From: a virus
Lineage: Duplodnaviria; Heunggongvirae; Uroviricota; Caudoviricetes
Virus record (IMG/VR): IMGVR_UViG_3300021962_009794
Strand: one strand, 5' to 3'
Length of the DNA: 64,000 bases
Shown: positions 11,604 through 64,000 of the stretch, one piece after another
Layout: the number at the start of each line of letters is the position of its first letter
How positions within the stretch are numbered: position 1 is the stretch's first letter
Program-made: the position numbers and the translations under genes
The notes under the pieces: model-generated
What the model was told of the DNA's origin: nothing
What the model saw: only the letters and a program-made list of their open reading frames with translations
The model's database searches: none

Positions 11604-11613
11604 AAACAGAAAA

Positions 11614-19307: not shown

Positions 19308-19309
19308 GA

Positions 19310-20398
19310 ATGGAAAGGAAATTAGCATCCATACAAAGAATCGGAAACATACTTCCCATCGAGGGAGCAGACGCAATAGAAATCGTAACTGTTAACTCTT
19401 GGAAGGTTGTTTCTAAGAAGGGAGAATTTAATGAAGGGGATCTTTGTGTTTATTTCGAAATTGATTCGTTCTTACCTGTGAGAGAAGAATTCGAATTTCT
19501 TAGAAAATCATCTTATAAAAAGATGGGTGATGTCGAAGGATTCAGATTAAAGACAATCAAATTAAGAGGCCAGGTTTCTCAAGGACTTTGTCTTCCACTC
19601 AATATATTGGAAGGTCCAGATGAATTCGTAATCGGTGTCAGCAAGCAGCCTTGGGGAGATCAGCTTCAGATTGGACCTTATGATGACGCTTTTGTTATCG
19701 AGGAAGGTGCTGATGTAACAGAATACCTAGGTGTTCTTAAGTACGAGCCACCAGTTCCAGCAGAACTTGCAGGAAAGGTTAAAGGTCTATTCCCAGGTTT
19801 CATTAGAAAAACGGACGAGGAGAGAATCCAGAACATGACTAAGGAATACGACAGCATGCTTGATAAGCACTATTACGTAACAGAAAAACTCGACGGAAGT
19901 TCAGCTACATATTATTTCAAGGATGGTGTATTTGGCGTGTGTTCAAGAAATTTGGAGCTATTAGAAACAGAGGGAAATACTTTCTGGAAGGTTGCTAGAG
20001 AATTGCTTATCGAAGAGAAATTAAGAAACATAGGGGAGAATTACTCTATCCAAGGTGAGCTTATCGGAGAAGGCGTTCAGGGTAACCCCTACAAAATTAA
20101 AGGTCAAACTGTATTGATCTTTAACATTTTCAACATCGACAAGCAAGAGTATCTTAGTCTTGATGACATGGTTCATTTTCTACACAAAATAAATGTAGAC
20201 GATAAGCCTTTGGAGCTTGTGCCTGTCGTTAATTACGATTACAAATTACCTCCAACAATCGAGGAGATCATCAGATATGCTGACGGTAAATCAAGATTGA
20301 ATGAGGGAACAGATAGAGAGGGTATAGTTATCAGAAATAGAGACAAGAGTATTTCTTTTAAAGCTATATCAAATACGTTTTTATTAAAAGAGAAGTAA
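19310..20398 (+). CDS. second ATP-dependent RNA-ligase-like nucleotidyltransferase
   Basis: Motif I EKLDGSS with no Arg, which points to RNA rather than DNA ligase or capping enzyme; EGIVIRN and SFKAIS motif IV/V-like; N-terminal OB-like domain. Confidence 0.55.
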   Translation: MERKLASIQRIGNILPIEGADAIEIVTVNSWKVVSKKGEFNEGDLCVYFEIDSFLPVREEFEFLRKSSYKKMGDVEGFRLKTIKLRGQVSQGLCLPLNILEGPDEFVIGVSKQPWGDQLQIGPYDDAFVIEEGADVTEYLGVLKYEPPVPAELAGKVKGLFPGFIRKTDEERIQNMTKEYDSMLDKHYYVTEKLDGSSATYYFKDGVFGVCSRNLELLETEGNTFWKVARELLIEEKLRNIGENYSIQGELIGEGVQGNPYKIKGQTVLIFNIFNIDKQEYLSLDDMVHFLHKINVDDKPLELVPVVNYDYKLPPTIEEIIRYADGKSRLNEGTDREGIVIRNRDKSISFKAISNTFLLKEK

Positions 20399-27491: not shown

Positions 27492-28070
27492 ATGAAACTA
27501 ATATTCTTAGATATAGACGGAGTTCTTAATTGCGAGAACGCTTACCGAAGAGGTGAGTGCCAATACCAGGAATGGATTTGGGAAGACGGTCGCAAGGATC
27601 ACTATCAGCGATTTTGTAAACGCAGCAAAGATCTGCTAAATCAACTCATTGATGCAACTGAAGCGAAAATCGTTATCTCATCTAGTTGGAGAACAAGTGG
27701 TATTGAATTTATGAAGAAAGTTTGGGAGCTTGAAGATATGCACGGTGAAATAATAGGGATCACCCCGTCAATGAGAACTTCGGGAATAAGTATTCCACGA
27801 GGAATGGAAATTCATTACTACTTAGAGCATGACTTGGGGTTCCGTCATATCAACTGGTCAGCTGACGAGCAACAAAAACTAATGGACAAGTCGGGCGTAG
27901 AAAACTACATTATCATTGATGATGACAGTGACATGCTATACGGGCAGCGTAATCACTTCGTCCACGTTCTACCTTCACCCAGAAACAAAGAAGGATTTAA
28001 CCAGAAGTATTACAAAGAAGCTTTATCTAAATTAAGTAAAACAGTAACGGATCTAAATTATAAAAAATGA
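27492..28070 (+). CDS. HAD-superfamily hydrolase/phosphatase
   Basis: MKLIFLDIDGVLN motif I; IIIDDDSD aspartate motif. Confidence 0.55.
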   Translation: MKLIFLDIDGVLNCENAYRRGECQYQEWIWEDGRKDHYQRFCKRSKDLLNQLIDATEAKIVISSSWRTSGIEFMKKVWELEDMHGEIIGITPSMRTSGISIPRGMEIHYYLEHDLGFRHINWSADEQQKLMDKSGVENYIIIDDDSDMLYGQRNHFVHVLPSPRNKEGFNQKYYKEALSKLSKTVTDLNYKK

Positions 28071-28915
28071 AAGACGCACTAGGCGATAGAATGAAAGATT
28101 TCTACGAAGACAGGACAAGAACAAAACTTCCGAGAAGAAGTTACACAATAATCAGAATCGACGGAAAGGCTTTCCATACTTACACAAGAGGTTTAGAAAG
28201 ACCTTTTGATATGTGGCTCATGGAAGACATGGACGCAACTGCAGCTTACCTCTGTAAGAATATTCAGGGTGCTAAATTTGCATACGTTCAGTCAGATGAG
28301 ATCTCAATTCTAATTACAGATTTTGATGATCTAGGAACACACGCTTGGTTTGATAACAATCTACAAAAGATGGCTTCAGTTTCTGCTTCAATGGCAACTG
28401 CCAGATTCAACCAACTTAGATTAATTAGAGAAGCTAAGAACGGGGGAGACTTAGTTAAATCACAGATCTCACAATTTCCGATGGCTATGTTTGACGCCAG
28501 GGTATTTCAAATTCCATTTGCAGCTGAGGTTGAAAACTATTTCATCTGGAGACAGCAAGACGCTACAAGAAACTCTATCAGTTCAGCTGCACAAAGTGTT
28601 TATAGCTCTAAAGAATTACACGGGGTTAAGAGTGACGGTATGCAGGAAATGCTCTTCCAAAAGGGGATCAACTGGAACGATTACAGTCCAAGAGAGAAAA
28701 GAGGATCTGTTATCAGAAAGGTAGAGAAACAATTTGTGAGGAGAGAAACAATGGCAGAGGTAACCGATACTACAGTAGTCATTCCTGAATCTGCTACCTA
28801 TAAAAGAAATGTTTGGGAAGCAGATCCAGAAACACCAATCTTTACACAGAACAGGGAATATCTAAGATCTCTCTTTCCTAATTACGAACAACAAAAAGAG
28901 GAAGAAAATGTTTAG
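28067..28915 (+). CDS. Thg1-like protein (tRNA-His guanylyltransferase family 3'-5' nucleotidyltransferase)
   Basis: RMKDFYEDRTRTKLPRRSYTIIRIDGKAFHTYTRGLERPFD and AYVQSDEISIL follow the Thg1 N-terminal signature. Confidence 0.75.
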   Translation: MKDALGDRMKDFYEDRTRTKLPRRSYTIIRIDGKAFHTYTRGLERPFDMWLMEDMDATAAYLCKNIQGAKFAYVQSDEISILITDFDDLGTHAWFDNNLQKMASVSASMATARFNQLRLIREAKNGGDLVKSQISQFPMAMFDARVFQIPFAAEVENYFIWRQQDATRNSISSAAQSVYSSKELHGVKSDGMQEMLFQKGINWNDYSPREKRGSVIRKVEKQFVRRETMAEVTDTTVVIPESATYKRNVWEADPETPIFTQNREYLRSLFPNYEQQKEEENV

Positions 28916-31067: not shown

Positions 31068-32948
31068 ATGGCAGACAAAATGCAAATGTTACTTTCCTAT
31101 TCGTGGATGGTTATCCCAATCTTAGGAATTCTATTCTACAAATTCACTTTACGATTCTTCTTCGGAATGGTAATCATTCCAGAAGACAAGATCGGTTTAG
31201 TAACCAAAAAATTTGTTCTCTTCGGAGCAAACAAATCTCTACCTGACGGAAAAATCATCGCTCTAAACGGAGAGCCTGGTTTCCAAGCAGATACTCTAGC
31301 CCCTGGTTTATATTGGGGATATTGGGTTTGGCAGTATTCAATTGGACAAGCTGAACTAACTATAATTCCTAAAGGTAAAATTGGTTTACTCTCGGCTAAA
31401 GACGGTAAGCAATTGCCAACCGGTGCGATCTTAGCACGTCACGTAGAATGCGACAACTATCAAGATACTAGAGCATTCTTAACAAACGGAGGTCAAAGAG
31501 GTAAGCAAGTTGGATATCTTAATAACGGGGTTTATCGTATTAATCCTTACTTATTCGATTTAGCAATCTCTGACATCACCTACATTGAAGATGGTATGGT
31601 CGGCGTGGTAACCTCATTGGACGGTATTCCGTTAGACCAAGGTAACATCGCAGGTAATGCTATCGAGGGTCACAATAATTATCAGGACTTCGACAAATTT
31701 TTAGCTAACGGAGGGCAACGTGGTCTTCAAATCCAAGTCATTCAAGCTGGTAACTACTCATTAAACCCTTGGGCGGTTGAGATTGAGAAAGTTGAAATGA
31801 CTAAAATTCCAATCGGTCACGTAGGTGTAATCATCTCTTTCGTAGGTAAGGAAGGACAAGACGTAACTGGAGACGGATTCAAACACGGAAATATCGTAAA
31901 GAAAGGAGAAAAAGGTGTTTGTATCACTCCGCTGGATCCAGGTAAATACGCAATCAATCCTTATACTCATAAGATTGAGGTTGTACCAACAACAAACCTT
32001 GTATTGAACTGGGCAAATGCTCGCACAGAATCACACAACCTTGATAAAGGACTAAGCACGATCACTGTACGTTCTAAAGACGGTTTCCCATTCAACTTAG
32101 ACGTATCACAAATCATTCACATTCCTGCACCAGAGGCACCTAAAGTAATTGCCCGATTTGGTTCAATGCAGAATCTTGTATCGCAAGTTCTTGAGCCTAC
32201 TATCGGTAACTACTTCCGTAACTCTGCTCAGGATTCAGATGTTATCTCGTTCTTGTCTACACGTCAAAAACGTCAGGATGCTGCAAAAGAATCTATCTCT
32301 AAAGTTCTTGAGATGTACAACGTTCACGCAGTTGACACATTGATTGGAGACATCACTCCTCCTGAGTCTTTAATGAAAACATTAACCGATCGTAAGATCG
32401 CTCAAGAGGAAGAGGTTACATTTGAAACCCAACGTAAAGCTCAAGACCAACGTAAGACTTTAGAGTCTGCTAAGGCGCTGGCTGATATGCAAGGTCAAAT
32501 GGTATCTGCACAACAATCGGTAGAGATTTCACAACGTGAAGCTGAGGCGGCAGTTAAGAGATCGGAAGGTGAGGCTAAGGCTATGGAACTTAAAGCTGGA
32601 GCTCAGGCAAAAGCTAAGAAGTTAATGGCTGAGGCAGATGCTGCTCAGATCAAATTAACAGGGGACGCAGAAGCATCTAAGATTGCTGCTATCGGTAAAT
32701 CCACAGCAGAAGCTTACGAGCAACAGGTTAAAGCAATGGGAGCTGATAACTTCGGTAAATTAAAAGTTACTGAGATGATTGGTACAAACGGAATCAAAAT
32801 CATTCCTGAAGTACTTATCTCAGGTAACGACGGAGGAAATGGTCCAATCAGCGGATTACTTGGTATGGAATTACTGAAACAAATTCAAGAGAAGTCTGAT
32901 ACAAAGGACGTAAAAACAAATATAAAAGATGCAGGAGATCAAAAATAG
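31068..32948 (+). CDS. SPFH/band-7 flotillin-like membrane protein with internal duplication
   Basis: N-terminal TM helix; Ala/Glu/Lys-rich flotillin-like C-terminal coiled coil; internal repeats FLTNGGQRGKQVGYLNNGVYRINPY and FLANGGQRGLQIQVIQAGNYSLNPW. Confidence 0.55.
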   Translation: MADKMQMLLSYSWMVIPILGILFYKFTLRFFFGMVIIPEDKIGLVTKKFVLFGANKSLPDGKIIALNGEPGFQADTLAPGLYWGYWVWQYSIGQAELTIIPKGKIGLLSAKDGKQLPTGAILARHVECDNYQDTRAFLTNGGQRGKQVGYLNNGVYRINPYLFDLAISDITYIEDGMVGVVTSLDGIPLDQGNIAGNAIEGHNNYQDFDKFLANGGQRGLQIQVIQAGNYSLNPWAVEIEKVEMTKIPIGHVGVIISFVGKEGQDVTGDGFKHGNIVKKGEKGVCITPLDPGKYAINPYTHKIEVVPTTNLVLNWANARTESHNLDKGLSTITVRSKDGFPFNLDVSQIIHIPAPEAPKVIARFGSMQNLVSQVLEPTIGNYFRNSAQDSDVISFLSTRQKRQDAAKESISKVLEMYNVHAVDTLIGDITPPESLMKTLTDRKIAQEEEVTFETQRKAQDQRKTLESAKALADMQGQMVSAQQSVEISQREAEAAVKRSEGEAKAMELKAGAQAKAKKLMAEADAAQIKLTGDAEASKIAAIGKSTAEAYEQQVKAMGADNFGKLKVTEMIGTNGIKIIPEVLISGNDGGNGPISGLLGMELLKQIQEKSDTKDVKTNIKDAGDQK

Positions 32949-33819
32949 GATCTGTTGGAATAAGACAGATAAAGGTTCAGGTGAGATATTCTATTTAGCA
33001 ATGGAGTACACCGGAAAGGATCGGGACGGAAATGATACTGTTTCGATGAAGACTCTGAGAAAATTCTTTGAGTTAGAAACTTACATGATTAAATCAAAGG
33101 TTTCTAAAGAGCAGATAGCAGATCTGGAAAAGCTACATTCGGTAGATCCCAAAGCTATGCTAATCTCTACTATGGAAGAGGAGGATAAAAGAGGTCAGGA
33201 TAAGCTTATCTATAACATGATTAAGTATGCCGGAACTGTTAACGAAAAGATTGGATGGTCAACCATAGTTTTTAAAGCTAACGAATGGTTTGGATATCAG
33301 CCTAAGTTCAGGGTAAAAGAGGACTCGGACATATTCAGAAAGATAGTTTCCGTTTCTAATTTAATCCATAGGACAACGAGAAGATCAGATGCTGATTTTA
33401 TTATAGTAGGACCTGCTATGGGAGCTAGAATAATGAATCTACCGCAATTCGTTTACAACGACCCAAATCAGCCAGATCTAGATCGTAGTACAGGACTTAT
33501 ACATAAAGTTGGTAATCTCGGAAACAAATTCTCTGTAATAATCAATCCAATACTACATTGGAATGACGAGTCTATAGTTATAGGATCTAATACCTTTGAA
33601 GGACAGGAAGGAGTTTATCAGTATGAGATGGAACCAGAGGTAATTGAGACCGAGGGGATAAGTCCAACGAATTTTATGTCTGAGGTCATTCTCCACTACA
33701 AAAAAAGAATGGCTTTGGTAGCAACAGAAAATGCCCACTTAAAATACTATACTCTTAATACAACTACTAAAAGGCATAACATAGTAACTCATCTTATAGA
33801 TAAGATCTTTAAGAAATAA
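32929..33819 (+). CDS. hypothetical protein (296 aa)
   Basis: ORF. Confidence 0.55.
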   Translation: MQEIKNRICWNKTDKGSGEIFYLAMEYTGKDRDGNDTVSMKTLRKFFELETYMIKSKVSKEQIADLEKLHSVDPKAMLISTMEEEDKRGQDKLIYNMIKYAGTVNEKIGWSTIVFKANEWFGYQPKFRVKEDSDIFRKIVSVSNLIHRTTRRSDADFIIVGPAMGARIMNLPQFVYNDPNQPDLDRSTGLIHKVGNLGNKFSVIINPILHWNDESIVIGSNTFEGQEGVYQYEMEPEVIETEGISPTNFMSEVILHYKKRMALVATENAHLKYYTLNTTTKRHNIVTHLIDKIFKK

Positions 33820-41602: not shown

Positions 41603-42286
41603 ATGAACTACAGATCAGAATTTGAAAAGTACGCTAGAAGCGAACACGGAATCTCCTCACTGAGATTGGATTACTTCGATAAAAGAATCCAATCGTCAAT
41701 GACGCCTTATATCTTAGAGGAAAGAGAAATGAGAGTTACTCAGATGGATATCTTCTCACGTTTAATGAGAGATCGCATTCTTTGGGTTGCTGGAGGAGTT
41801 GATGATGACATGTCGACTGTGGTTCAGGCTCAGCTGATGTTTTTAGATTCTGTTGACGACAGAGACATCACTATGCACATCGATTCACCAGGTGGATCTG
41901 TTAAGTCCGGTCTATCTATGATTGATGTTATGGAATACATCGCATGTGACATCAGAACAGTAAATACCGGAATGGCAGCATCAATGGGATCTGTTTTATT
42001 GGGAGCAGGTACTAAAGGTAAAAGAAGCTCTTTGAGATTCAGTAAGGTGATGCTTCACCAATCAAGCGGAGGATTTAGAGGAAATATCCAGGATGCAAAG
42101 ATTGATATGCAAGAGTGGGAAGAGGTTAACAAGATTCTTTTCGATCTTCTTGGAAGTTACTGCGGTAAGAAACCAGAGCAGGTCATGAAAGATGCAACTA
42201 GAGATTTCTGGTTAAGTGCAGAAGAGGCAGTAAAATACGGAATCATTGATGAAGTAGTTCTCAAGAAGGAGAAAAAAAGAAAATAA
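41603..42286 (+). CDS. clpP: ATP-dependent Clp protease proteolytic subunit ClpP
   Basis: Canonical ClpP blocks: RDRILWVAGGVDD, AQLMFLDS, IDSPGGSV, GMAASMGS (catalytic Ser), MLHQSSGG (His). Confidence 0.85.
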   Translation: MNYRSEFEKYARSEHGISSLRLDYFDKRIQSSMTPYILEEREMRVTQMDIFSRLMRDRILWVAGGVDDDMSTVVQAQLMFLDSVDDRDITMHIDSPGGSVKSGLSMIDVMEYIACDIRTVNTGMAASMGSVLLGAGTKGKRSSLRFSKVMLHQSSGGFRGNIQDAKIDMQEWEEVNKILFDLLGSYCGKKPEQVMKDATRDFWLSAEEAVKYGIIDEVVLKKEKKRK

Positions 42287-42711
42287 TGCAATCCATAGTT
42301 AACCGTAAGGCCAGATTTGAATACACGTTTATTGACACCTACACTGCGGGGATATGCCTAATTGGCTCCGAAGTTAAGGCTATCAAAGACGGCAGGGCTT
42401 CTATGGTTGACACATATTGCATTTTTAATAAAGAAGAACTTTGGGTTAAGGGACTAGGGATAACTCCTGGTCCTGGCTCATTTCAGCACGAAGCACTCAG
42501 GGACAAGAAACTTCTACTGAGAAAGAAAGAGCTAAAAAAGCTGAGATCGTCTTTGGATAAAGGTCTTACGATAATACCTGTTAAGATATTCGTAAACGAA
42601 AAGAATAGGTTAAAGATGGAAATAGCTTTAGCTAGAGGTAAGAAGCTTTATGACAAAAGGGAATCTATTAAGGAAAGGGATATAGAGAGGGACATGAGAA
42701 GGAACGATTAA
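42286..42711 (+). CDS. smpB: SsrA-binding protein SmpB
   Basis: NRKARFEYTFIDTYTAGICLIGSEVKA...KLLLRKKEL...KIALARGKKLYDKRESIKERD aligns with bacterial SmpB along its whole length. Confidence 0.85.
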   Translation: MQSIVNRKARFEYTFIDTYTAGICLIGSEVKAIKDGRASMVDTYCIFNKEELWVKGLGITPGPGSFQHEALRDKKLLLRKKELKKLRSSLDKGLTIIPVKIFVNEKNRLKMEIALARGKKLYDKRESIKERDIERDMRRND

Positions 42712-50456: not shown

Positions 50457-50993
50457 ATGAATAGGGCAGATAAAATAACGGATCTAATGTACGGATGCAA
50501 AGCTAATGATCCAAAAGCCCAAAGAGAACTATACGATCTACTTAGCCGAAAAATGGCAGCATACATTTCAAGATATGTAGATTCAAAAGAAGATGCTGAA
50601 GAAATAGTTAATACGGGATTCTGTAGGGTTTTTCGGAAAATACATCTTTATAGCGGAATAGGGGATTTCGAAGGATGGATTTCTGTTATAATAAAAAGAG
50701 CAGCCATAGATCATCTAAAGCGTAAACTGAAAGCAAGAGAATCGATGAATGTAGTGGAGTTAAAAGAATATGAAAACTTTAAGCATCCAGAAATCGGAGA
50801 TAGCGTGGATTACATCTATAAGAGTATGGAAGGACTACCCAAGAAAACAAAAAGAGTAATGGATCTTTTTATTAGAGGATTTAAGCACAGTGAGATTGGA
50901 GATATAATAGGGATTAGCGAGGGAACATCTAAGTGGCACGTTCACGAGGCCAAAAAGATTATGCTAGGTAGGATAACAAAAAAGGCGGGATAA
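50457..50993 (+). CDS. sigma-70-family (ECF-like) RNA polymerase sigma factor
   Basis: Region 2-like GFCRVFRKIHLY...GWISVIIKRAAIDHLKRK; region 4 HTH GFKHSEIGDIIGISEGTSKWHVHEAKKIM. Confidence 0.65.
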   Translation: MNRADKITDLMYGCKANDPKAQRELYDLLSRKMAAYISRYVDSKEDAEEIVNTGFCRVFRKIHLYSGIGDFEGWISVIIKRAAIDHLKRKLKARESMNVVELKEYENFKHPEIGDSVDYIYKSMEGLPKKTKRVMDLFIRGFKHSEIGDIIGISEGTSKWHVHEAKKIMLGRITKKAG

Positions 50994-51008
50994 CCCGCCT
51001 TTTTTTTA
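50984..51008. terminator. bidirectional rho-independent terminator
   Basis: ggcggg-ataa-cccgcc hairpin flanked by an A-run upstream and TTTTTTTTT downstream, between convergent genes. Confidence 0.7.
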
Positions 51009-51111: not shown

Positions 51112-52548
51112 TTACTTTTGATAATCTCTGATTACCACTTTGTTTACCTTCAAGTTAGGCGTTTGAATTCCGCCACTCTTATAAACAACAACATCATATT
51201 TGTCTGAAGTGTTAATCTCGTATTTGAAAACAGTCATTAGCTTACCGTCTTCGCTAACTGGATTACAACATCCTTTAAGACATGTTTTGTTTCTAGGGTC
51301 ACTATGGTTAGCACCAAAGAATGTCATAACACCTACGAAAGATTCGCTCTGCATGTCATATGGTTTACCTTCAGCGTGATTAACATAAACTTCATAGAAT
51401 CCGGTAGGATCTGTGTCGAATGTTGTGTAGATCTCTAAAAGAGTTTTTTGATGATTATACTTAGCAGGCTTATTTAAAGTGGCTACGTGAGTAGCAGCTT
51501 CTTTTAGAATTTTATTAGATGACTCAGAACCTATAATTTGTTTTGGTCCTATGTTAGCATCAGAAGCTTTTAAATTCTCCTTAACCTTTACGTCATCATA
51601 ATCATAGTCCATGTTGTAAACGATGGCTAATACCTCCTCCGGAGTGTAAACAACAGATTTACCATTCTCGTCGAAGAATTGATATTTCCATGGGTTGTCT
51701 TTTAACTGCTGTAGAGTAATCTTTTTACCGTTTGGAGAGTTTAACCATTGCTGAAACACTCTATCAATATTAGCGTGGTGAGCCCAGAAAATAGGATCGA
51801 AAGCTGCACTCGGTACTTCTGACATCATACCAAAATGAGAATTACGTTGATAGATCTTGTTGTAGTACCAAACAGATCCTGGATTGTTACCAGATCCGAT
51901 ATAGTTGTGCATTTGTCCGTGAATGTTCTGATCAAAGTAAGAATTGAATGTTTGGTAGTCAGTGATCTGCATCATCTTAGGATAAGTGCTCTGAATAACT
52001 CTTAATGTTCCGCCGCTGATTGGGTGACCGTTATTTAAAGAATCAAGTCTTGCTTCCTCGTATAAAGAACTGTTAACATCTCTCCATTTCTTAGGCATGA
52101 TCTTATCTCTCTTGTCGTAGTTAGTGTAACCCCAATAAGGTAATGCGAAATCAGATTTACCTGAAAGTTTTCTTACGATCTTTTCAAAATGCCAGATGTA
52201 TAATCTGTGCCAGATAAGGAAATTGATTTCTTCAGCACCACTGTGAGAGTGCGTGCACTCATCCCAAGCCATTTTTAATTCTGTCCAGTCGCTATATGAT
52301 TCACATAACTTATTAGAGTCGATATGTGAAGGAACCCAGTGAATAGCAGCTTGATAGTACCAGCTGGTTGGATCGTCACATCCTTTTAGTTTCATAACAG
52401 TCATTGCGCTATCAAGAGCTTCGATGTCAGCCAAAGCCTCAGACGAGTTGGCATTTTTTCTCACATATCTTAAATCGTTTTCGCTAGTAGTACACGAAGA
52501 TATGGCCGTGACTAATAGGGCAAATAGAATTACAATTTTTGTTTTCAT
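51112..52548 (-). CDS. secreted tyrosinase (type-3 copper polyphenol oxidase) lipoprotein
   Basis: Signal peptide plus lipobox MKTKIVILFALLVTAISSC; CuA site H...FLIWHRLYIWHFE; CuB site HGQMHNYIG...DPIFWAHHANIDR. Confidence 0.7.
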   Translation of the reverse strand: MKTKIVILFALLVTAISSCTTSENDLRYVRKNANSSEALADIEALDSAMTVMKLKGCDDPTSWYYQAAIHWVPSHIDSNKLCESYSDWTELKMAWDECTHSHSGAEEINFLIWHRLYIWHFEKIVRKLSGKSDFALPYWGYTNYDKRDKIMPKKWRDVNSSLYEEARLDSLNNGHPISGGTLRVIQSTYPKMMQITDYQTFNSYFDQNIHGQMHNYIGSGNNPGSVWYYNKIYQRNSHFGMMSEVPSAAFDPIFWAHHANIDRVFQQWLNSPNGKKITLQQLKDNPWKYQFFDENGKSVVYTPEEVLAIVYNMDYDYDDVKVKENLKASDANIGPKQIIGSESSNKILKEAATHVATLNKPAKYNHQKTLLEIYTTFDTDPTGFYEVYVNHAEGKPYDMQSESFVGVMTFFGANHSDPRNKTCLKGCCNPVSEDGKLMTVFKYEINTSDKYDVVVYKSGGIQTPNLKVNKVVIRDYQK

Positions 52549-52960: not shown

Positions 52961-52976
52961 TAGATTTCTTTTTTTC

Positions 52977-52984
52977 TATATATC
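52977..52984 (-). promoter_or_regulatory. GATATATA-type promoter-like motif (minus orientation)
   Basis: 17 nt upstream of the minus-strand start at 52960. Confidence 0.35.
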
Positions 52985-53061
52985 ATGAAAAAATACCCCT
53001 TAAAATTTTTTTATCCCGTAATGTGATCGTATATTTGCATCATAATTTTAAATAATTAATT

Positions 53062-53469: not shown

Positions 53470-53494
53470 GGGATAACCACTAAAAATAAAAAAA

Positions 53495-53519
53495 GGCCTG
53501 ATCCCTCAGGCCTTTTTTT
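53495..53519. terminator. bidirectional rho-independent terminator
   Basis: A-run, ggcctga-tccc-tcaggcc hairpin, TTTTTTT; between convergent genes. Confidence 0.75.
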
Positions 53520-53535
53520 ATATGATCAAATTGTA

Positions 53536-54185: not shown

Positions 54186-55268
54186 TTAGTTGAACCATCC
54201 ACCTTGTAGACCCCTAGCCAGCTTGGAGAGATCTCTAATTCCAGTTCTTTTCAGTACGCCCTCTTTAGTATCAGGGTAAGCATCAAGTATGGTTATTTTA
54301 AGTGGATTGCTTTTAAAGTATGAATCAAGGATCTCGTTGCTCAATATTGTTGTGACCAAAGACCTCGCTTTATCATCATACCCCGGCTTAGCATCGTGAT
54401 TGGGTAATATGTTATATCCTCCGCCTACTTTGTAATATGTTTTGACACTACCTAATTCCAATACTTTAAGACATGTCTCAACATCAAAAGGTTTAATGTC
54501 AAAAAATCTTGTCATTAAATATTCAGCGCCGAAAGATAAATTCAGATCCTTTAAACTTTCCAATTCTGCGGTGCCTATATTAATCCCACCTTTAATACCT
54601 GCGGGGAATCCTTTTGTTGACTTTATACCTCCCCACACACTAATTTTTTTAACACTCGAAGGTGCAAAATCCTCTATGGAATAAATATCCCTCCCTATCA
54701 CATCAATGCTAAATTCTCCCTTTATTTTACCAAACTTGAATCCGATAGGATTATTGTCATTGTTGTAAATGTCTAGTTTAACCGCACCTTCGACGTCAAC
54801 TGAATTTGTATTGGGATTCCATTTCCAAGGGGCTTTAGTTGATTTGTTTATTAGGAGTATATCTTCTTTTGTCAAAGTTCCAGTTGCTTCTGGATTCATC
54901 CTCTTCATTTCCTTTGACCATCTATCCTTTAAATAATTAAAAAGATCCTCAAGGGTAAATGCGGTCTTATATTGCTTAATAAATCCAGAGCTTACACCCT
55001 TGTCCCTGATGTAACCCGACGATTGTAAAACAACTCCGCTTGGATACATGTATGGAACTTCTCTATTAACCACCATGATGGTACCATTTTTAGCCTGGAT
55101 AGGTGTGGTAACGTCTTCGAATCCCATTTCCTCGAGTTCTTTCCATAAATCCATCTCTTTCCAGTTTGTAGGCCATTTTGGATTTCCCTCCGCTTTAAAT
55201 TCTTCAGACAGAAGAATTCTCCTGTCAGAGGAATTTTGATATAGATCGTACTCAAGTATTCTTCTCAT
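54186..55268 (-). CDS. hypothetical protein (360 aa) with MRRILEYDLY propeptide-like N-terminus
   Basis: ORF. Confidence 0.55.
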   Translation of the reverse strand: MRRILEYDLYQNSSDRRILLSEEFKAEGNPKWPTNWKEMDLWKELEEMGFEDVTTPIQAKNGTIMVVNREVPYMYPSGVVLQSSGYIRDKGVSSGFIKQYKTAFTLEDLFNYLKDRWSKEMKRMNPEATGTLTKEDILLINKSTKAPWKWNPNTNSVDVEGAVKLDIYNNDNNPIGFKFGKIKGEFSIDVIGRDIYSIEDFAPSSVKKISVWGGIKSTKGFPAGIKGGINIGTAELESLKDLNLSFGAEYLMTRFFDIKPFDVETCLKVLELGSVKTYYKVGGGYNILPNHDAKPGYDDKARSLVTTILSNEILDSYFKSNPLKITILDAYPDTKEGVLKRTGIRDLSKLARGLQGGWFN

Positions 55269-56098
55269 TATAAATTGTTTCTGAATTCTTTAAATGTTCT
55301 GAAAGATTCTGATTCATTTGGCTTCTCGTCGGTGCTTAATTCTGTACCTTTCTCTTTCTCCCAATGGAATAGTGGTGTGTTCCAAGCAATCTCGAAAGTA
55401 TCCACTGCGTCTCTATATGATTCAGGGGATTCTTCGTTAGCGTCTCTTGTGTACTGCCAGCCCATGAAAAGCTCTTCAGGTACTTGGAATCCAAAGAATT
55501 CCAAAACCTTTCTTTGTGTGGTTAAGCTCTGATCAACCTGCCAGTTTTGACCTATCACAACCAAACCCGCCATTATATTCTCAACTGTGCTTTTCTCACC
55601 GAGTGTTGTGTGCATGTTTTCTATCCAGTCAAGTCTTTCTATGACCTTCTGGTAAATTGCATTAACGCTTCCCCATCTTTGTGATCCGAAGAATATGACT
55701 GCCTGGCTATCATAGATTGCGTTTGCTATCTTATAGAGTTCATCATCTTCGAAGTCATGTGAAGCCCAGCATCTAAGATGCCCGTGTGGGTTCTTTACAT
55801 CGTCTTTAACAGCAGATTCTTTAACGCCGCAGTTATTACCATGTACCTCACTAACACATCCTAAACAATTATGTATATTCAGTTTAGCAGCATCTATAAT
55901 CTCAACCTTAATATCACGTTGTTTTAGCTTATCTGCTAAGTTTCTAGCAAGCTGTGATGATTTTGGGCTCTCGCCAAATTTCTCGACGTAAGGGCTTCTG
56001 CTGGAGGTTGTAATAAAAGTCACCTTCTTGCATGGAGTAAGTTTCTCAATGAACCTCCTTACATCCTCTATCTCAAATCCGTATTTTACGTCTATCAT
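55268..56098 (-). CDS. hypothetical protein, possibly flavodoxin-fold
   Basis: VTFITTSSRSP...IIDAAKLNIHNCLGC resembles NAD(P)H-dependent FMN-reductase/flavodoxin-like proteins; weak. Confidence 0.5.
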   Translation of the reverse strand: MIDVKYGFEIEDVRRFIEKLTPCKKVTFITTSSRSPYVEKFGESPKSSQLARNLADKLKQRDIKVEIIDAAKLNIHNCLGCVSEVHGNNCGVKESAVKDDVKNPHGHLRCWASHDFEDDELYKIANAIYDSQAVIFFGSQRWGSVNAIYQKVIERLDWIENMHTTLGEKSTVENIMAGLVVIGQNWQVDQSLTTQRKVLEFFGFQVPEELFMGWQYTRDANEESPESYRDAVDTFEIAWNTPLFHWEKEKGTELSTDEKPNESESFRTFKEFRNNL

Positions 56099-59929: not shown

Positions 59930-60829
59930 TTAAATCATGCCTTTAATTTTGGTATATGTTGATAAAGCTTTGTACTTTCTGATCTCCTCTTGACTTAAAG
60001 CAGGATTGTCCTTGTACATCAGAATTCTATCCTCATCTGGCATGTCAGGCCAAAATTCTTCTAGTGCTTCCGTATATGTTCTTCTTCGACTTCCCCCTCC
60101 TTGATTCATTATCTCTATAATATTTTTTAGAGTGCCTGGAGAAACTGGGTTGTCCCGGCAGAAAATCCCGTTAGTCTTTGGTGCACCTTCTAGAGACACG
60201 ATAAGATTTCTACTACAGTAGATATCCTTCACTACCTCTGGTGCTCCTACTAATGAGGTGAGCTTATTGTCGCTACAGTTCAATGAGCTTAATAGTTCCC
60301 TAGGTGATCCTTCTAAAGTTGTGAGCTTGTTTTCAGATGCGTGAAGAGTATAGTAGACATTCTGGGGTGCTCCTACTAGTGAGGTGAGTTTGTTATTAGA
60401 GCAATCAAAAACTCTAGCAACCTTTTCTGGTGCGCCCTCTAAAGTTTCCAATATATTCACACTGCAATCAAAATCTCCACCAACTTCCCTCGGAGATCCT
60501 ATTAGGTTCTTAAGGGAGTTCTGTGCGCAGATAAAATTCGCACCAACAAAAACGGGTGAGCCAACTAAGGAGGTGAGAGCGTTGGAGCTGCAATCGAAAC
60601 TGCCCTTAATCTCTCCGAATTCTATTCCTTTAAAGTCTCGTAATTTTTGTCCCTGACAGACGAATTTCCCGTAAACATCAACCTTACCTGTTGAAGGATT
60701 ATACTCCCATGATCCATACGCTCCACCCAACACGCCCTTATCAAGCCATCTCATCTGTTCTTTAGTGAACACCTTTCTGATTGGCTCTGATTCGGATTCA
60801 AATACGTGGTATGGTGTAACGTGCTTCAT
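59930..60829 (-). CDS. repeat protein (about 23-aa LTSLEGAP-type leucine-rich-like repeats) with MKHVTPYHVFES N-terminus and conserved C-terminal module
   Basis: Repeats G.P..V.G.F.CS.N.LTSL.GAP; the C-terminal W..MPDEDRILMY...EE.RKYKAL..Y.KIK module is shared with 62015..62554 and 62583..63194. Confidence 0.55.
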   Translation of the reverse strand: MKHVTPYHVFESESEPIRKVFTKEQMRWLDKGVLGGAYGSWEYNPSTGKVDVYGKFVCQGQKLRDFKGIEFGEIKGSFDCSSNALTSLVGSPVFVGANFICAQNSLKNLIGSPREVGGDFDCSVNILETLEGAPEKVARVFDCSNNKLTSLVGAPQNVYYTLHASENKLTTLEGSPRELLSSLNCSDNKLTSLVGAPEVVKDIYCSRNLIVSLEGAPKTNGIFCRDNPVSPGTLKNIIEIMNQGGGSRRRTYTEALEEFWPDMPDEDRILMYKDNPALSQEEIRKYKALSTYTKIKGMI

Positions 60830-61291: not shown

Positions 61292-61978
61292 CTATTTCTT
61301 CTCAGTCATAGTAGGAATTGGAGTTCCAACAGGGTAAGGGAATCCTTGTTTAGCTGCTGTTACTGAAGTCTGCCCATTTTTAACAGGAACTGCTATACGT
61401 AAAGGAACTGCAGCTTCATTAAGTGGTCCGTAAACTTTAGCTAACACTATGCCAGTCTCTGTAGTGTCGAAGATCACACCAGGCATGGCAAACATGTTGC
61501 TCTCAGATGTAGCTGGATCTTCCATGTTGATCGTGAATGCTCTGTTCACTGGACTCATCATCTCCCATTGCTTATTTGCAGGGTTGAACTGAGGAATAGT
61601 TGTTGTGGTGTCGAAGTACCAGAATAAACTCCAAACTGTCTTATCACTTCCGTCTGGGGTTTGGAAGGCGGTAGCCACGTTGAAATCTCCCCAAGTACCA
61701 CCACTTCCATACATGGCTAGATTAGAGATAGAAGGTCCGTCAAGTACAGGACAGATAGCGCATCCCTCTTTATATTCAACACCTTGGATAACAATTGTCT
61801 TGCCGGTAGGTACTGCAGCAGATGCTCCACAGAAAGCAAATTTGCCTTTGTGAATTCTAAGCACACCAGCTTCATTCTCTTGTGCAACTTCTATTTGGGT
61901 CTCATGCTTCTTCTCTGAGCATGCTGTAAAGGCAAGCATTGCGGCTGCCATTAGTAATAGTTTTGTTGTTTTCATCAT
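61292..61978 (-). CDS. putative lipoprotein (228 aa)
   Basis: MMKTTKLLLMAAAMLAFTAC signal peptide plus lipobox; promoter motif at 61999-62006. Confidence 0.55.
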   Translation of the reverse strand: MMKTTKLLLMAAAMLAFTACSEKKHETQIEVAQENEAGVLRIHKGKFAFCGASAAVPTGKTIVIQGVEYKEGCAICPVLDGPSISNLAMYGSGGTWGDFNVATAFQTPDGSDKTVWSLFWYFDTTTTIPQFNPANKQWEMMSPVNRAFTINMEDPATSESNMFAMPGVIFDTTETGIVLAKVYGPLNEAAVPLRIAVPVKNGQTSVTAAKQGFPYPVGTPIPTMTEKK

Positions 61979-62582: not shown

Positions 62583-63194
62583 TCATAGCATGTTCTTGAT
62601 GTTGCTATAAAACAGAAAGGCCTCAATCTTTCTTTTCTCCTCGGAACCAATCCAATAAAAATTTGGTCTGTATAAAAGAACCTGATCCTCTATAGGAATC
62701 TCGCTCCATAGAAGTTCAACTGAATCCAGGTAGTTCTGATATAAAAGTCCTCCCATGAGGTGGGCTATTTTGTGAAGAACCTCTTCAGAAACTGGATTCG
62801 TTGAGACCCATAGCGCGCCACCGATCTTCCTGGGTAATCCCTCCAGACTGGTGAGCTGGTTTTTATTAAGGGTTAGATGTCCACCAACCTCACTAGGTGC
62901 GTTCTTCAGAGAGGTGAGGGGGTTGCTGGTGAGATACAGGTGACTCAAGATCTCCCTAGGGAATCCATCCAGAGTGGTGAACAGGTTGTCATCGGCGTTG
63001 AAGTACCCTGTGACCGTTCCAAACCTCACGCCCTTCAGATCTCTCAGACCCTGACGGCTGCAATCGAAATTACCCTTCACGCTCACCAGCCCAGTCGAGG
63101 CATCGTGGCTCAGATTGCCGCTGGTGCAGGAGGAGAGCCAATCAATTTGCTCTCTGCTTAGGACTGGGAGTTGTGGATTAGGAACAGTTCTCAT
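62583..63194 (-). CDS. GC-rich paralog of the 59930..60829 repeat protein, lacking the N-terminal propeptide motif
   Basis: STGLVSVKGNFDCSRQGLRDLKGVRFG, LTSLEG repeats and C-terminal W.EIPIEDQVLLY...EEKRKIEAF.FYSNIKNML match the paralog; start set at M55 of the track ORF; codon usage visibly GC-richer than neighbours. Confidence 0.45.
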   Translation of the reverse strand: MRTVPNPQLPVLSREQIDWLSSCTSGNLSHDASTGLVSVKGNFDCSRQGLRDLKGVRFGTVTGYFNADDNLFTTLDGFPREILSHLYLTSNPLTSLKNAPSEVGGHLTLNKNQLTSLEGLPRKIGGALWVSTNPVSEEVLHKIAHLMGGLLYQNYLDSVELLWSEIPIEDQVLLYRPNFYWIGSEEKRKIEAFLFYSNIKNML

Positions 63195-63346
63195 TGTACA
63201 GCAAATGTAAGAACTGTTTACGGGCGGAAAAAATGAAACCGGGCCTTTTCGGCCCTTTTCCCCAGATGGGCCCGGCCTCCAAATAGATATAGCATATATT
63301 CCGTCTCTTATAGAGCTAGATAGATAGAGAGATACTAAAGAACAGC

Positions 63347-63730
63347 ATGAGCACACAATCGCATATAGACAAGGTAAGCATGAAACCTAATCTACTACCA
63401 TACCCACACCATGTAGCAGCACCTAAGATAGAAGCACTAGATCTATCAACGTTCAATAAGCTACAGGCGCACAAGGTCACTAAGTCGCTACAGAAGAGAG
63501 CAGATGAGATAGCGAGCTTAATGAAGTCCTTACAAGAAGACTATGAGCTCAACCTACAGCTCTACTCGGCAACCAGATCTTTCGAGCCTGTACTAGGGGA
63601 GGTGTATCATCTATATGAGAAGCCAGATGGCACCCAGTTCTTAAGCCTTATAGCTCCCACCGAATGGAAGCAGAAGTACCTGTACTCTGGCACACTTAAC
63701 TCAGATGGCACCTGGAGCAGGGTACAGTAG
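63347..63730 (+). CDS. hypothetical protein (127 aa, GC-richer segment)
   Basis: ORF. Confidence 0.4.
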   Translation: MSTQSHIDKVSMKPNLLPYPHHVAAPKIEALDLSTFNKLQAHKVTKSLQKRADEIASLMKSLQEDYELNLQLYSATRSFEPVLGEVYHLYEKPDGTQFLSLIAPTEWKQKYLYSGTLNSDGTWSRVQ

Positions 63731-63735
63731 TCAAA

Positions 63736-63744
63736 GATATATAG
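63736..63744 (+). promoter_or_regulatory. GATATATAG promoter-like motif
   Basis: 5 nt upstream of the ATG at 63749; shows the phage motif persists in the GC-richer segment. Confidence 0.35.
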
Positions 63745-63748
63745 AGGC

Positions 63749-64000
63749 ATGAGACACCTACAGAAATACAGAGGATTTGGGATCAAAGAGAACATCACCC
63801 AAACAGAAGGCTGGGAGATTAGCGACAACTCCCTCTATAAGAAATACGTGTTCGAAGACTTCAATGTTGCCATGGAGTTTATGAACGAAGTAGCAGAGGT
63901 GTGTAACCAAATGAATCACCATCCCAAGTGGACCAACATCTATAAGACAGTAGAGTGCTGGCTCAGAACCCACGACGTGGAAGCCATCACGGATAATGAC
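63749..64000 (+). CDS. pterin-4a-carbinolamine dehydratase (PCD/DCoH), 3' end beyond window
   Basis: EVCNQMNHHPKWTNIYKTVECWLRTHDVEAITDND matches the PCD signature ([EDKH]-x-H-[HN]-P-x...-H-D); open to the window end. Confidence 0.55.
   Translation, partial: MRHLQKYRGFGIKENITQTEGWEISDNSLYKKYVFEDFNVAMEFMNEVAEVCNQMNHHPKWTNIYKTVECWLRTHDVEAITDND

What the first reader, a model, noticed from the sequence alone, without database searches (positions are those of the whole stretch)
51112..52548. Secreted tyrosinase (type-3 copper) lipoprotein encoded by the phage, with a pterin-4a-carbinolamine dehydratase at 63749
Both copper sites are intact (H...F.IWHR.YIWHFE; DPIFWAHHANIDR) behind a lipoprotein signal peptide. 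Tyrosinases make quinones and melanin. A phage-borne copy could modify the host envelope or protect cells from UV or oxidants during infection, or act on phenolic host defences. The PCD/DCoH homolog at the window end functions in phenylalanine-to-tyrosine hydroxylation cycles, so the two genes are plausibly linked through tyrosine metabolism. Few phages are known to carry tyrosinases.
Basis: partly seen in the sequence, partly recalled or inferred. Interest (0 to 1): 0.65.

Follow-up and report, generated by a model that had tools for sequence, protein, structure and literature searches.

The report
Phage-borne membrane-anchored pro-tyrosinase
A large phage, probably infecting Flavobacterium-like bacteria, carries an intact, exported copper enzyme of the tyrosinase family; the same gene recurs in many uncultivated large phages but was found in no deposited phage genome, and its proposed link to a nearby pterin dehydratase gene is not supported.

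Summary
ORF 51112-52548 (minus strand, 478 aa) is a type-3 copper tyrosinase (Pfam PF00264, 100.5 bits). All six copper histidines are invariant in 113 relatives, and it has a lipoprotein signal (…AISS-C19). The window is a phage, with a T4-type capsid protein, Dda-like helicase, RNA ligases and a 99% identical IMG/VR contig. Its nearest capsid relatives are Flavobacterium myoviruses.

New findings:
- It is a two-domain latent pro-tyrosinase. The AF2 model (pLDDT 88) matches Hahella HcTyr1 (8B74) and latent plant PPOs over both domains.
- The gene family is widespread in uncultivated large and jumbo phages. It occurs on 21 IMG/VR contigs of up to 476 kb, and all 120 top database clusters are nearest to phage-context copies. 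It was absent from 50,697 GenBank phage records, PHROGs and BFVD.
- The gene has the phage's composition and is under purifying selection (31 synonymous versus 5 non-synonymous codon differences).
- Phage copies carry a C-x3-C-C loop in the lid (113/113). Bacterial copies have His/Met-rich loops there (none of 79 has two or more Cys).

The PCD gene at 63749 is real, but the link to the tyrosinase is unsupported. It lies 11 kb away on the opposite strand, has atypical composition, and no pterin-dependent hydroxylase was found. The physiological role of the tyrosinase remains inferred.

The parts
51112..52548 (-). Complete pro-tyrosinase gene (478 aa plus stop codon)
   Evidence: ORF list. Pfam PF00264, 100.5 bits. 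AF2 model with pLDDT 88 and pTM 0.89. Foldseek matches to latent tyrosinases/PPOs over both domains.
52492..52548 (-). Lipoprotein-type signal peptide (aa 1-18) and lipobox Cys19
   Evidence: Sequence MKTKIVILFALLVTAISS-C. A lipobox is present in 7/7 tier-1 phage copies and in the bacterial sister clade.
51589..52470 (-). Helical catalytic domain (aa 27-320). CuA ligands are H70, H100 and H114; CuB ligands are H210, H214 and H258. It also holds the C98-x-H100 motif.
   Evidence: Invariant columns in A1 and A2 and in every clade. Codon coordinates checked. The CuB signature DPIFWAHHANID matches.
51115..51537 (-). C-terminal beta-rich lid (shielding) domain, aa 338-478
   Evidence: Beta strands in the AF2 model. 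Foldseek aligns about 510 columns to latent two-domain enzymes 8B74, 6HQJ, 4Z11-14, 6ELS and 7XIO. Weak sequence match to the apple PPO C-domain 6ELT.
51313..51321 (-). Invariant F410-F411-G412 just after strand 404-409; candidate active-site placeholder
   Evidence: Conserved in all clades. The position is analogous to Phe454 of abPPO4, which sits just after beta11 (PMC4157443), and to Phe397 of HcTyr1 (PMC11609597). This is an inference, because no model coordinates were available.
51265..51282 (-). Phage-specific Cys loop C423-L-K-G-C427-C428 in the lid; candidate copper-loading loop
   Evidence: C-x3-C-C is present in 113/113 phage-clade sequences. None of 79 bacterial copies has two or more Cys there; they are His/Met-rich instead. 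Giant-virus copies have C-x-x-C. The fungal CXXC motif is described as a copper-incorporation motif (PMC4157443).
52562..52960 (-). Upstream 132-aa ORF, separated from the tyrosinase start by a 13-nt gap and probably co-transcribed
   Evidence: ORF list and sequence. No Pfam hit. No relatives in other tyrosinase loci.
52961..53061 (.). Divergent intergenic region; presumed promoter region of the two-gene tyrosinase unit
   Evidence: Gene layout. The upstream minus-strand block is closed by a terminator at 53486-53521. The promoter itself is not identified.
50978..51005 (.). Bidirectional intrinsic terminator shared by the tyrosinase and the convergent sigma-factor gene
   Evidence: 12-bp stem GGCGGG/CCCGCC flanked by A and T runs.
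63749..64000 (+). PCD/DCoH gene, 5' 84 codons of 99. It is real, but it is not shown to be part of the tyrosinase function.
   Evidence: Pfam Pterin_4a, 77.6 bits. Full gene in L095. GC3 z = +4.9.
32929..33819 (+). T4-type (Gp23) major capsid protein; it marks the window as a phage and points to the host group
   Evidence: Pfam PF07068, 37.4 bits against a cutoff of 24.4. Its only GenBank phage relatives are Flavobacterium phage vB_FspM_immuto capsid proteins and a 484 kb uncultured phage.

Best explanation
The gene encodes a functional latent (pro-form) type-3 copper phenol oxidase of the tyrosinase/catechol-oxidase family. It was acquired long ago from a Bacteroidota lineage and is now kept as an auxiliary gene by a group of large and jumbo phages.

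Proposed mechanism:
1. In the infected cell it is made from a small two-gene unit.
2. It is exported through the Sec/lipoprotein pathway and tethered by its N-terminal lipid anchor to the cell envelope, facing the periplasm or the surface.
3. It is loaded with two copper ions, possibly helped by the Cys-rich lid loop.
4. It stays inactive while the C-terminal lid blocks the active site, probably with F410 or F411.
5. After the lid is removed or displaced, it uses O2 to oxidise phenolic substrates to o-quinones. Candidate substrates are free tyrosine or catechols, plant- or humic-derived phenolics, or exposed protein tyrosines.
6. The quinones then polymerise or cross-link at or around the infected cell.

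Shown here: the family, the ligands, the fold, the lid, the signal peptide, the phage location, purifying selection and the wide occurrence in phages. Inferred: export, copper loading, lid removal, catalytic activity, the substrate and the benefit to the phage.
For: - Family and ligands: Pfam PF00264 at 100.5 bits. H70, H100, H114, H210, H214, H258, C98, E122 and D262 are invariant across 113 relatives and across every clade. The CuB signature matches.
- Fold: the AF2 model (pLDDT 88, pTM 0.89) matches, over both domains, enzymes with measured activity. These are HcTyr1 8B74 (E 4e-20), latent tomato and apple PPOs, aurone synthase and Ralstonia TYR. HcTyr1 has the same Cys-x-His motif and a Phe placeholder, and it oxidises L-tyrosine and L-DOPA (PMC11609597).
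- Export: a lipobox or an N-terminal anchor is present in all phage copies examined.
- Phage location: a Gp23 capsid protein and phage genes on both sides. The source contigs continue as phage beyond the window. IMG/VR holds a 99% identical copy.
- Long-term maintenance: GC, GC3 and codon usage are typical of the phage. There are 31 synonymous against 5 non-synonymous codon differences to L013. Two phage clades have bootstrap support of 100% and 98%. There are 21 IMG/VR contigs of up to 476 kb. All 120 top database clusters are nearest to phage copies. Five of five inspected relatives' contexts look like phage.
- Origin: the phage clades plus 11 chromosomal Bacteroidota copies form a super-clade with 94% bootstrap.
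Against: - No activity, copper content, localisation or expression timing was measured.
- The six histidines are also conserved in non-enzymatic hemocyanins, so they do not prove catalysis.
- The HisA2 loop is 5 residues longer than canonical, so the strict PROSITE CuA pattern fails. This region of the model has lower confidence (pLDDT 66-77).
- HB1+1 is Gly rather than the Asn proposed to favour monophenolase activity. That rule has exceptions (PMC5562730), so tyrosinase versus catechol oxidase cannot be decided.
- No conserved neighbouring gene in the phages points to a substrate.
Confidence: 0.72

Rival explanations
1. The tyrosinase and PCD genes form one tyrosine-metabolism module. PCD would recycle the pterin for a phenylalanine hydroxylase that makes tyrosine, and the tyrosinase would then convert that tyrosine to melanin.
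For: Both genes are real. They also co-occur within about 7 kb in one other phage, L014.
Against: - L014 is syntenic with the window in this region, so the co-occurrence is inherited, not independent.
- No Biopterin_H hydroxylase was found in the window.
- PCD has an atypical GC3 (z = +4.9), whereas the tyrosinase is typical.
- The genes lie 11 kb apart on opposite strands, with terminators between them.
- PCD lacks a signal peptide, while the tyrosinase is exported.
- No PCD lies near the tyrosinase in 79 bacterial loci or about 20 other phage loci.
- An 80% identical PCD is on a 349 kb phage contig that is absent from the tyrosinase scan.
- Tyrosinase itself uses no pterin (established biochemistry).
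Confidence: 0.06
2. The enzyme is active, but its target is protein. It would oxidise tyrosines of envelope proteins to cross-link or mask receptors. This would give superinfection exclusion, or stop progeny adsorbing to cell debris, as other phage lipoproteins do by receptor blocking.
For: - Membrane tethering is conserved in all phage copies, by lipobox or signal anchor.
- Another lipoprotein gene (61292-61978) is directly upstream of the tyrosinase in L014 and L055.
- Tyrosinases are known to cross-link proteins through quinones (general knowledge; quinone reactivity is reviewed in PMC7504153, title seen).
Against: There is no direct evidence. The lipoprotein signal is inherited from the bacterial sister clade, so it is not a phage innovation. 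The lid implies regulated activity rather than constitutive activity.
Confidence: 0.12
3. The protein is a non-catalytic, hemocyanin-like oxygen- or copper-binding protein with a permanently closed lid. It would act, for example, as a copper sink or an O2 buffer.
For: By summed phmmer score the top PDB hits are mollusc hemocyanins. All copies keep the lid. The lid carries a thiol-rich loop that could bind metal.
Against: The hemocyanin scores are sums over 8-11 functional units, with the best single unit at 31 bits. The single-domain match to the enzyme HcTyr1 is 81 bits. Foldseek ranks latent enzymes first. The architecture is one unit of 478 aa, not a multi-unit hemocyanin.
Confidence: 0.05
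4. The gene is not really a phage gene. It would be bacterial DNA in a mis-assembled or mis-binned contig, or a recent passenger with no role for the phage.
For: Related genes sit in Bacteroidota chromosomes. Two IMG/VR contigs (L118, L119) carry copies without the phage-type Cys loop.
Against: - The exact protein was found on 17 contigs from several samples, flanked by the same phage genes where flanks are present.
- Its composition and codon usage match the phage.
- It is under purifying selection.
- The phage clades are distinct from bacterial copies, and all 113 sequences share a derived loop.
Confidence: 0.02

Closest known systems
HcTyr1, tyrosinase of Hahella sp. CCB MM4 (PDB 8B74; PMC11609597)
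   Same: It is the best structural match (Foldseek E 4e-20, TM 0.61/0.67 over both domains) and the best single-domain sequence match in the PDB (81 bits). It has the same plan: a helical copper domain with six His, a Cys-x-His motif, a C-terminal lid with an aromatic placeholder, and a similar size (466 aa against 478 aa).
   Different: Only about 19% identity. HcTyr1 is a chromosomal gene of a gammaproteobacterium; the paper text does not mention a signal peptide, and its sequence was not examined here. Its HisA2-HisA3 spacing is 9 residues, against 14 here. Whether its lid has a Cys loop was not examined here. Its activity has been measured; here it has not.
Latent plant polyphenol oxidases (apple MdPPO1 6ELS/6ELT, tomato 6HQI/6HQJ, aurone synthase 4Z11-4Z14)
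   Same: They share the two-domain latent fold (Foldseek E about 1e-17, TM about 0.63). The C-terminal motif fYEVYVN…sFvGv aligns with KFDVYVN…EFAGSF. There is a weak PPO1_DWL hit at residues 289-322.
   Different: These are eukaryotic enzymes targeted to plastids. Their thioether Cys lies 4 residues after HisA1 rather than in a Cys-x-His motif (my own knowledge, not tested here). They have no lipid anchor.
Fungal pro-tyrosinases (Agaricus abPPO4 4OUA/5M6B, Aspergillus MelB 3W6W)
   Same: They have a Cys-x-His thioether motif at HisA2, a beta-barrel lid with a Phe placeholder just after a strand, and then a disordered Cys-containing loop implicated in copper incorporation (PMC4157443). The order of elements is the same here: strand 404-409, FFG 410-412, then the Cys loop 423-428.
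   Different: The structural match is weaker (TM 0.4-0.5). Their motif is C-x-x-C and here it is C-x3-C-C. The fungal proteins are larger.
Chromosomal tyrosinases of Bacteroidota (Mucilaginibacter, Emticicia, Telluribacter, Flavobacterium)
   Same: They are the closest cellular relatives, at 35-48% identity and full length, with the same lid. The sister clade also has lipoprotein signals. They form a super-clade with the phage copies at 94% bootstrap.
   Different: Their lid loop is His/Met-rich and has no Cys. In the main Flavobacterium clade the gene is the third of an operon, after a multicopper-oxidase-domain protein and a small secreted protein. The phage copies stand alone.
Streptomyces MelC2 tyrosinase with the MelC1 caddie
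   Same: The copper site is the same, and there is a CuB-region match.
   Different: NCBIfam MelC2 scores 33.6 bits against a cutoff of 450. MelC2 has no lid domain and depends on a separate caddie protein. No caddie-like partner is conserved here.

Membership tests
Type-3 copper tyrosinase / polyphenol oxidase (Pfam PF00264) | Profile match above the curated threshold | tested here: met
   100.5 bits against a cutoff of 22.6, E 2.2e-28.
Type-3 copper tyrosinase / polyphenol oxidase (Pfam PF00264) | Six copper-ligand histidines (3 CuA, 3 CuB) | tested here: met
   H70, H100, H114, H210, H214 and H258 are invariant in 113 sequences and in all clades, including the giant-virus outgroup.
Type-3 copper tyrosinase / polyphenol oxidase (Pfam PF00264) | PROSITE-type CuB signature D-P-x-F-[LIVMFYW]-x2-H-x3-D (pattern recalled from memory) | tested here: met
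   DPIFWAHHANID at residues 251-262.
Type-3 copper tyrosinase / polyphenol oxidase (Pfam PF00264) | PROSITE-type CuA signature H-x(4,5)-F-x-x-[FW]-H-R… (pattern recalled from memory) | tested here: not met
   The spacer is 9 residues, not 4-5. A relaxed pattern matches HSHSGAEEINFLIWHRLYIWHFE. The longer loop is shared by the whole family and H100 is invariant, so this is a variant of the CuA loop and not a loss of a ligand.
Type-3 copper tyrosinase / polyphenol oxidase (Pfam PF00264) | Four-helix-bundle copper-domain fold | tested here: met
   The AF2 model (pLDDT 88) matches solved tyrosinases and PPOs with probability 1.00.
Type-3 copper tyrosinase / polyphenol oxidase (Pfam PF00264) | Copper binding and phenol/catechol oxidase activity | not testable with these tools
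   This needs purified protein and assays.
Latent (lid-bearing) pro-tyrosinases | C-terminal beta-rich domain that packs on the catalytic domain | tested here: met
   Strands at 338-475. About 510 aligned columns to latent two-domain structures. Weak match to the apple PPO C-domain.
Latent (lid-bearing) pro-tyrosinases | Placeholder residue inserted over the copper site | tested here: inconclusive
   The invariant F410/F411 just after strand 404-409 is the candidate, by analogy with Phe454 of abPPO4 and Phe397 of HcTyr1.
Latent (lid-bearing) pro-tyrosinases | Cys-x-His at HisA2 (thioether in fungal enzymes) | tested here: met
   C98-T99-H100 is invariant. Formation of the covalent bond itself cannot be tested here. 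It was not seen in apo HcTyr1.
Bacterial lipoproteins (signal peptidase II substrates) | Basic n-region, hydrophobic core, and lipobox [LVI][ASTVI][GAS]-C | tested here: met
   MKTK / IVILFALLVTA / I-S-S-C19. It is conserved in 7/7 tier-1 copies. No LipoP or SignalP run was possible.
Streptomyces MelC2-type tyrosinase | Equivalog score, and a caddie (MelC1) partner | tested here: not met
   33.6 bits against a cutoff of 450. The upstream ORF132 has no family hit and is not conserved with the gene.
Mollusc hemocyanin | Chain of several functional units, with a non-enzymatic O2-carrier role | tested here: not met
   This is a single 478-aa unit. The hemocyanin scores are sums over many units, with the best unit at 31 bits.
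Phage auxiliary (host-derived) gene | Sits inside a viral genome between viral genes, and has cellular homologs | tested here: met
   Phage genes lie on both sides and beyond the window. IMG/VR contigs carry it. There are Bacteroidota chromosomal homologs.
Pterin-4a-carbinolamine dehydratase (PF01329), for the ORF at 63749 | Profile match, and the H-H-P catalytic motif | tested here: met
   77.6 bits against a cutoff of 26. NHHPKW…Y…H…D is present in the sequence. The motif itself was recalled from memory.
Pterin-4a-carbinolamine dehydratase (PF01329), for the ORF at 63749 | Partner pterin-dependent aromatic amino-acid hydroxylase | tested here: not met
   No Biopterin_H was found in the Pfam scans of the window. 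The rest of the phage genome, which is at least 137 kb, was not visible.

The most novel reading that the evidence does not exclude
A large lineage of big and jumbo phages of Bacteroidota has long kept its own envelope-anchored tyrosinase, remodelled for self-sufficient copper loading (a Cys loop in place of the bacterial His/Met loop). Infected cells would then oxidise environmental phenolics or melanise themselves. Phage infection would become an unrecognised driver of phenol oxidation and of the 'enzyme latch' on carbon turnover in lakes and wetlands, and possibly a sunscreen or anti-superinfection device for the phage.
Probability: 0.3. Interest if true: 0.75.

Novelty: new variant of a known kind. 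Interest (0 to 1): 0.6.

Why it matters
[quoted passage not shown] I found no report of phage-encoded tyrosinases in the searchable literature. None was found in 50,697 deposited phage genomes, PHROGs or BFVD.

If active, this gene would be a new class of phage auxiliary function that works outside the cytoplasm. It would also be a ready source of compact, self-contained pro-tyrosinases for biocatalysis. The C-x3-C-C lid loop cleanly separates viral from cellular copies, so it could serve as a marker to quantify phage-borne phenol oxidases in metagenomes.

Tried and rejected
- Megablast of 45-60 kb against GenBank phages found no match.
- PHROGs gave no family for the tyrosinase or for the four large ORFs at 576-5826.
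- BFVD had no viral structure with this fold.
- I first assumed the tyrosinase closed the long minus-strand block that holds the Laminin_G_3 virion protein, which would suggest late expression. A strong terminator at 53486-53521 and a divergent intergenic region show it is a separate two-gene unit, so I dropped that.
- The upstream ORF132 is not a caddie or chaperone candidate. It has no signal peptide, no family hit and no relatives beside other tyrosinases.
- DUF2452 is not a conserved partner that explains PCD. The adjacency holds only in close relatives, and the downstream ORFs in L138 and L139 are unrelated to PCD.
- An FMN_red-like flavoprotein at 55268-56098 could be a quinone-detoxifying partner, but its score is borderline and it is absent from other tyrosinase loci. 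I kept it only as a note.
- No neighbour is conserved across the phage clades.
- Copper-site geometry could not be measured, because model coordinates are not exposed.
- The afdb50 fold library was unavailable.
- The sampling environments of the metagenomes could not be looked up.
Full report
**1. The observation**

Both quoted motifs are present. Pfam Tyrosinase (PF00264) matches at 100.5 bits, E 2.2e-28, against a curated cutoff of 22.6. The N-terminus MKTKIVILFALLVTAISS-C19 has the three parts of a lipoprotein signal, with the lipobox I-S-S-C. The truncated ORF at 63749 is a pterin-4a-carbinolamine dehydratase (Pterin_4a, 77.6 bits against a cutoff of 26). The complete gene in the source phage is 99 aa.

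**2. The window is a phage, probably of Bacteroidota**

- The window encodes a Gp23-type major capsid protein at 32929-33819 (37.4 bits against a cutoff of 24.4).
- It also encodes a Dda-like helicase, a T4-type RNA ligase and a protein matching a PHROG annotated as virion structural protein.
- Other features are a CHAP-domain protein, ClpP, SmpB and an ECF sigma factor, an RNA-repair gene set and one tRNA.
- The exact tyrosinase protein was found on 17 metagenomic contigs, flanked by the same phage genes where flanks are present.
- Beyond the window end, the source contig continues with more than 25 small ORFs that have no family.
- An identical DUF2452 protein sits on a 136,960 bp contig, so the genome is at least about 137 kb.
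- IMG/VR holds a 99% identical copy.
- The capsid protein's only relatives among 50,697 GenBank phage records are the capsid proteins of 160 kb Flavobacterium myoviruses and a 484 kb uncultured phage.
- Together with the Bacteroidota affinity of the tyrosinase and a GC content of 38%, this points to a Flavobacterium-like host. That is an inference.

**3. What the protein is**

All six copper ligands (H70, H100, H114 for CuA; H210, H214, H258 for CuB) are invariant in 113 aligned relatives, in every bacterial clade and in the giant-virus outgroup. C98 (a Cys-x-His motif at HisA2), E122 and D262 are also invariant. The CuB signature matches exactly. The strict CuA pattern fails only because the HisA2 loop is 5 residues longer, and this is a family-wide trait.

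An AlphaFold2 model built on the 113-sequence alignment is confident (pLDDT 88, pTM 0.89). It shows a helical core (about residues 36-310) followed by a beta-rich domain (338-475). Foldseek aligns both domains, about 510 columns, to latent pro-enzymes:
- Hahella HcTyr1 (8B74, E 4e-20)
- latent tomato and apple PPOs
- latent aurone synthase
- Ralstonia TYR

HcTyr1 has the same Cys-x-His motif, a lid with a Phe397 placeholder, a self-processing lid, and measured mono- and diphenolase activity (PMC11609597). The C-terminal domain alone weakly matches the isolated apple PPO C-domain. That match aligns fYEVYVN…sFvGv with KFDVYVN…EFAGSF.

The high phmmer scores to mollusc hemocyanins are sums over many functional units. 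The best single unit scores 31 bits, against 81 bits for HcTyr1. The protein is therefore a lid-bearing pro-tyrosinase, not a hemocyanin-like protein or a Streptomyces MelC2-type enzyme (33.6 bits against a cutoff of 450).

HB1+1 is an invariant Gly and HB2+1 is Asn or Asp. The proposed Asn rule for monophenolase activity has known exceptions (PMC5562730). Tyrosinase versus catechol oxidase therefore cannot be decided from sequence.

**4. A phage-specific feature**

An invariant F410-F411-G412 follows strand 404-409. After it comes a low-confidence loop carrying C423-x3-C427-C428. All 113 sequences of the phage clades have C-x3-C-C there. None of the 79 bacterial copies has two or more Cys in that loop, and 70 of them have three or more His+Met. 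Examples are QHTGHQHHA and HSGMDDMKMDGM. All 13 giant-virus copies have C-x-x-C.

In mushroom abPPO4 the placeholder Phe454 sits just after a strand. It is followed by a disordered loop with a CXXC motif, which is described as responsible for copper incorporation (PMC4157443). By analogy, F410/F411 is the likely placeholder and the Cys loop a copper-loading element.

**5. Distribution and origin**

- No relative exists in 50,697 GenBank phage records, PHROGs or BFVD.
- I found no paper on phage tyrosinases.
- The 5.8-billion-protein database holds 691 relatives.
- The contexts of five relatives I inspected are all phage-like contigs of 64-347 kb.
- IMG/VR has 21 contigs with the family, including contigs of 154, 253, 281, 299 and 476 kb.
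- All 120 top clusters are closest to phage-context copies: 20 in tier 1 and 100 in tier 2.
- These phages also share other genes with the window.
- Cellular relatives at 32-48% identity are mostly chromosomal genes of Bacteroidota.
- In a neighbour-joining tree with 200 bootstraps, the two phage clades get 100% and 98% support. A clade of 11 chromosomal copies (Mucilaginibacter, Emticicia, Telluribacter and two Flavobacterium) gets 91%. All three together get 94%, and all-phage monophyly gets only 23%.
- The shared Cys loop argues for one acquisition, so the point is unresolved.
- The gene has the phage's GC, GC3 and codon usage. It differs from the 99% identical copy by 31 synonymous and 5 non-synonymous codons. 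It is therefore old in the phage and under purifying selection.

**6. Gene unit and neighbours**

A bidirectional terminator at 53486-53521 closes the upstream block. The tyrosinase forms a two-gene unit with a 132-aa ORF that has no family. The unit starts in the divergent region 52961-53061 and ends at the bidirectional terminator 50978-51005, which it shares with the convergent sigma-factor gene.

No neighbour is conserved across the phage clades. In the main Flavobacterium clade, by contrast, the gene follows a multicopper-oxidase-domain protein and a small secreted protein. All phage copies keep an N-terminal lipobox or an uncleaved anchor, so membrane tethering is a conserved trait.

**7. 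The PCD link**

PCD is genuine, but nothing ties it to the tyrosinase:
- It lies 11 kb away on the other strand, with terminators in between.
- It has a GC3 z-score of +4.9.
- It has no signal peptide.
- The Pfam scans of the window found no pterin-dependent hydroxylase.
- PCD occurs near the tyrosinase only in L014, which is syntenic with the window.
- It is absent from 79 bacterial tyrosinase loci and the other phage loci.
- An 80% identical copy lies on a 349 kb phage contig that the tyrosinase scan did not find.
- Its neighbour DUF2452 is a common small gene of these phages, and PCD follows it only in close relatives.

PCD therefore looks like a separate, lineage-restricted insertion.

**8. 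Verdict**

The molecular identity is well supported. It is an exported, lipid-anchored, latent type-3 copper phenol oxidase, derived from a host and kept by phages. The catalytic activity, the activation step, the substrate and the benefit to the phage are inferred. I rate the finding a new variant of a known kind and set interest at 0.6. It would be the first description of a tyrosinase as a recurrent phage gene, with a clear viral signature in the lid. The enzyme family itself is well known, and no function has been shown.

Noticed in passing
window 41603-42711: The phage encodes ClpP (188.7 bits), immediately followed by SmpB (153 bits), the tmRNA-binding protein. A phage-borne trans-translation factor next to a protease is unusual.
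   Followed up: no
window 9819-12236, 13006-13449, 19274-20398, 27492-28915: There is an extensive RNA-repair gene set: two RNA ligases (one with a PHA02142 OB fold), Metallophos plus an AAA_33 kinase-like protein, cREC_REC, HAD_SAK_2 and a Thg1 tRNA-His guanylyltransferase. This suggests a counter-defence against tRNA-cleaving host systems.
   Followed up: no
window 576-3583: Two tandem paralogous ORFs (514 and 488 aa; 36% identity, E 3e-95) have no Pfam or PHROG family. The two following large ORFs (3585-5826) also have no family.
   Followed up: partly
window 62583-64000: The last 1.4 kb (a repeat protein, DUF2452 and PCD) is compositionally atypical, with GC 0.45-0.47 and GC3 z-scores of +2.7 to +4.9, against a window mean GC of 0.386. 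It may be a more recent insertion.
   Followed up: partly
window 55268-56098 (-): A borderline FMN_red (NAD(P)H-dependent FMN/quinone-reductase-like) flavoprotein (24.9 bits against a cutoff of 24) lies 2.7 kb from the tyrosinase. It could detoxify quinones, but it is absent from other tyrosinase loci.
   Followed up: partly
window 61292-61978 (-); L014:9179-9871; L055:405-1301: A second lipoprotein (228 aa, no family) is 9 kb from the tyrosinase here. It sits directly upstream of the tyrosinase in L014 (70% identity) and L055 (66%).
   Followed up: partly
window 59930-60829 (-) and 62583-63356 (-): Two paralogous proteins have leucine-rich-repeat-like units (…N.LTSL.G.P…). They have relatives in L014 and next to PCD in the 349 kb phage contig L137.
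   Followed up: partly
window 31068-32948: A 626-aa SPFH/Band-7 protein (91.8 bits) is 82% identical to a gene in the tyrosinase loci L108 (299 kb contig) and L110 (71 kb contig).
   Followed up: no
window 50457-50993: An ECF-type sigma factor (Sigma70_r2 plus r4_2) is convergent with the tyrosinase and shares its terminator.
   Followed up: no
L002:6577-9363: In a 214-304 kb phage, a short bacteriorhodopsin-like protein (195 aa, 50.9 bits), a PAS histidine kinase and a response regulator lie just upstream of the tyrosinase. These are light-related genes beside a pigment-forming enzyme.
   Followed up: partly
L006:8090-13107: In a 64.7 kb phage contig the tyrosinase is flanked by an HSP70 gene directly upstream and a ferritin gene two genes downstream.
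   Followed up: no
L122-L136 (IMG/VR GVMAG contigs): Giant-virus contigs encode distant tyrosinases (22-27% identity) with Asn at HB1+1 and a fungal-type C-x-x-C in the lid loop. I found no paper on these.
   Followed up: partly
L032-L085 (Flavobacterium and relatives): There is a conserved chromosomal operon: a Cu-oxidase_3 domain protein (about 318 aa), a secreted 142-aa protein with no family, and the tyrosinase. It occurs in 32-34 of 79 loci.
   Followed up: partly
window 52189-52191 (H120): H120, six residues after the CuA3 ligand, is invariant in the phage clades and nearly so in the sister clade (10 of 11). It is Tyr in about half of the other bacterial copies and Gln or Glu in giant viruses. 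Its role is unknown.
   Followed up: no
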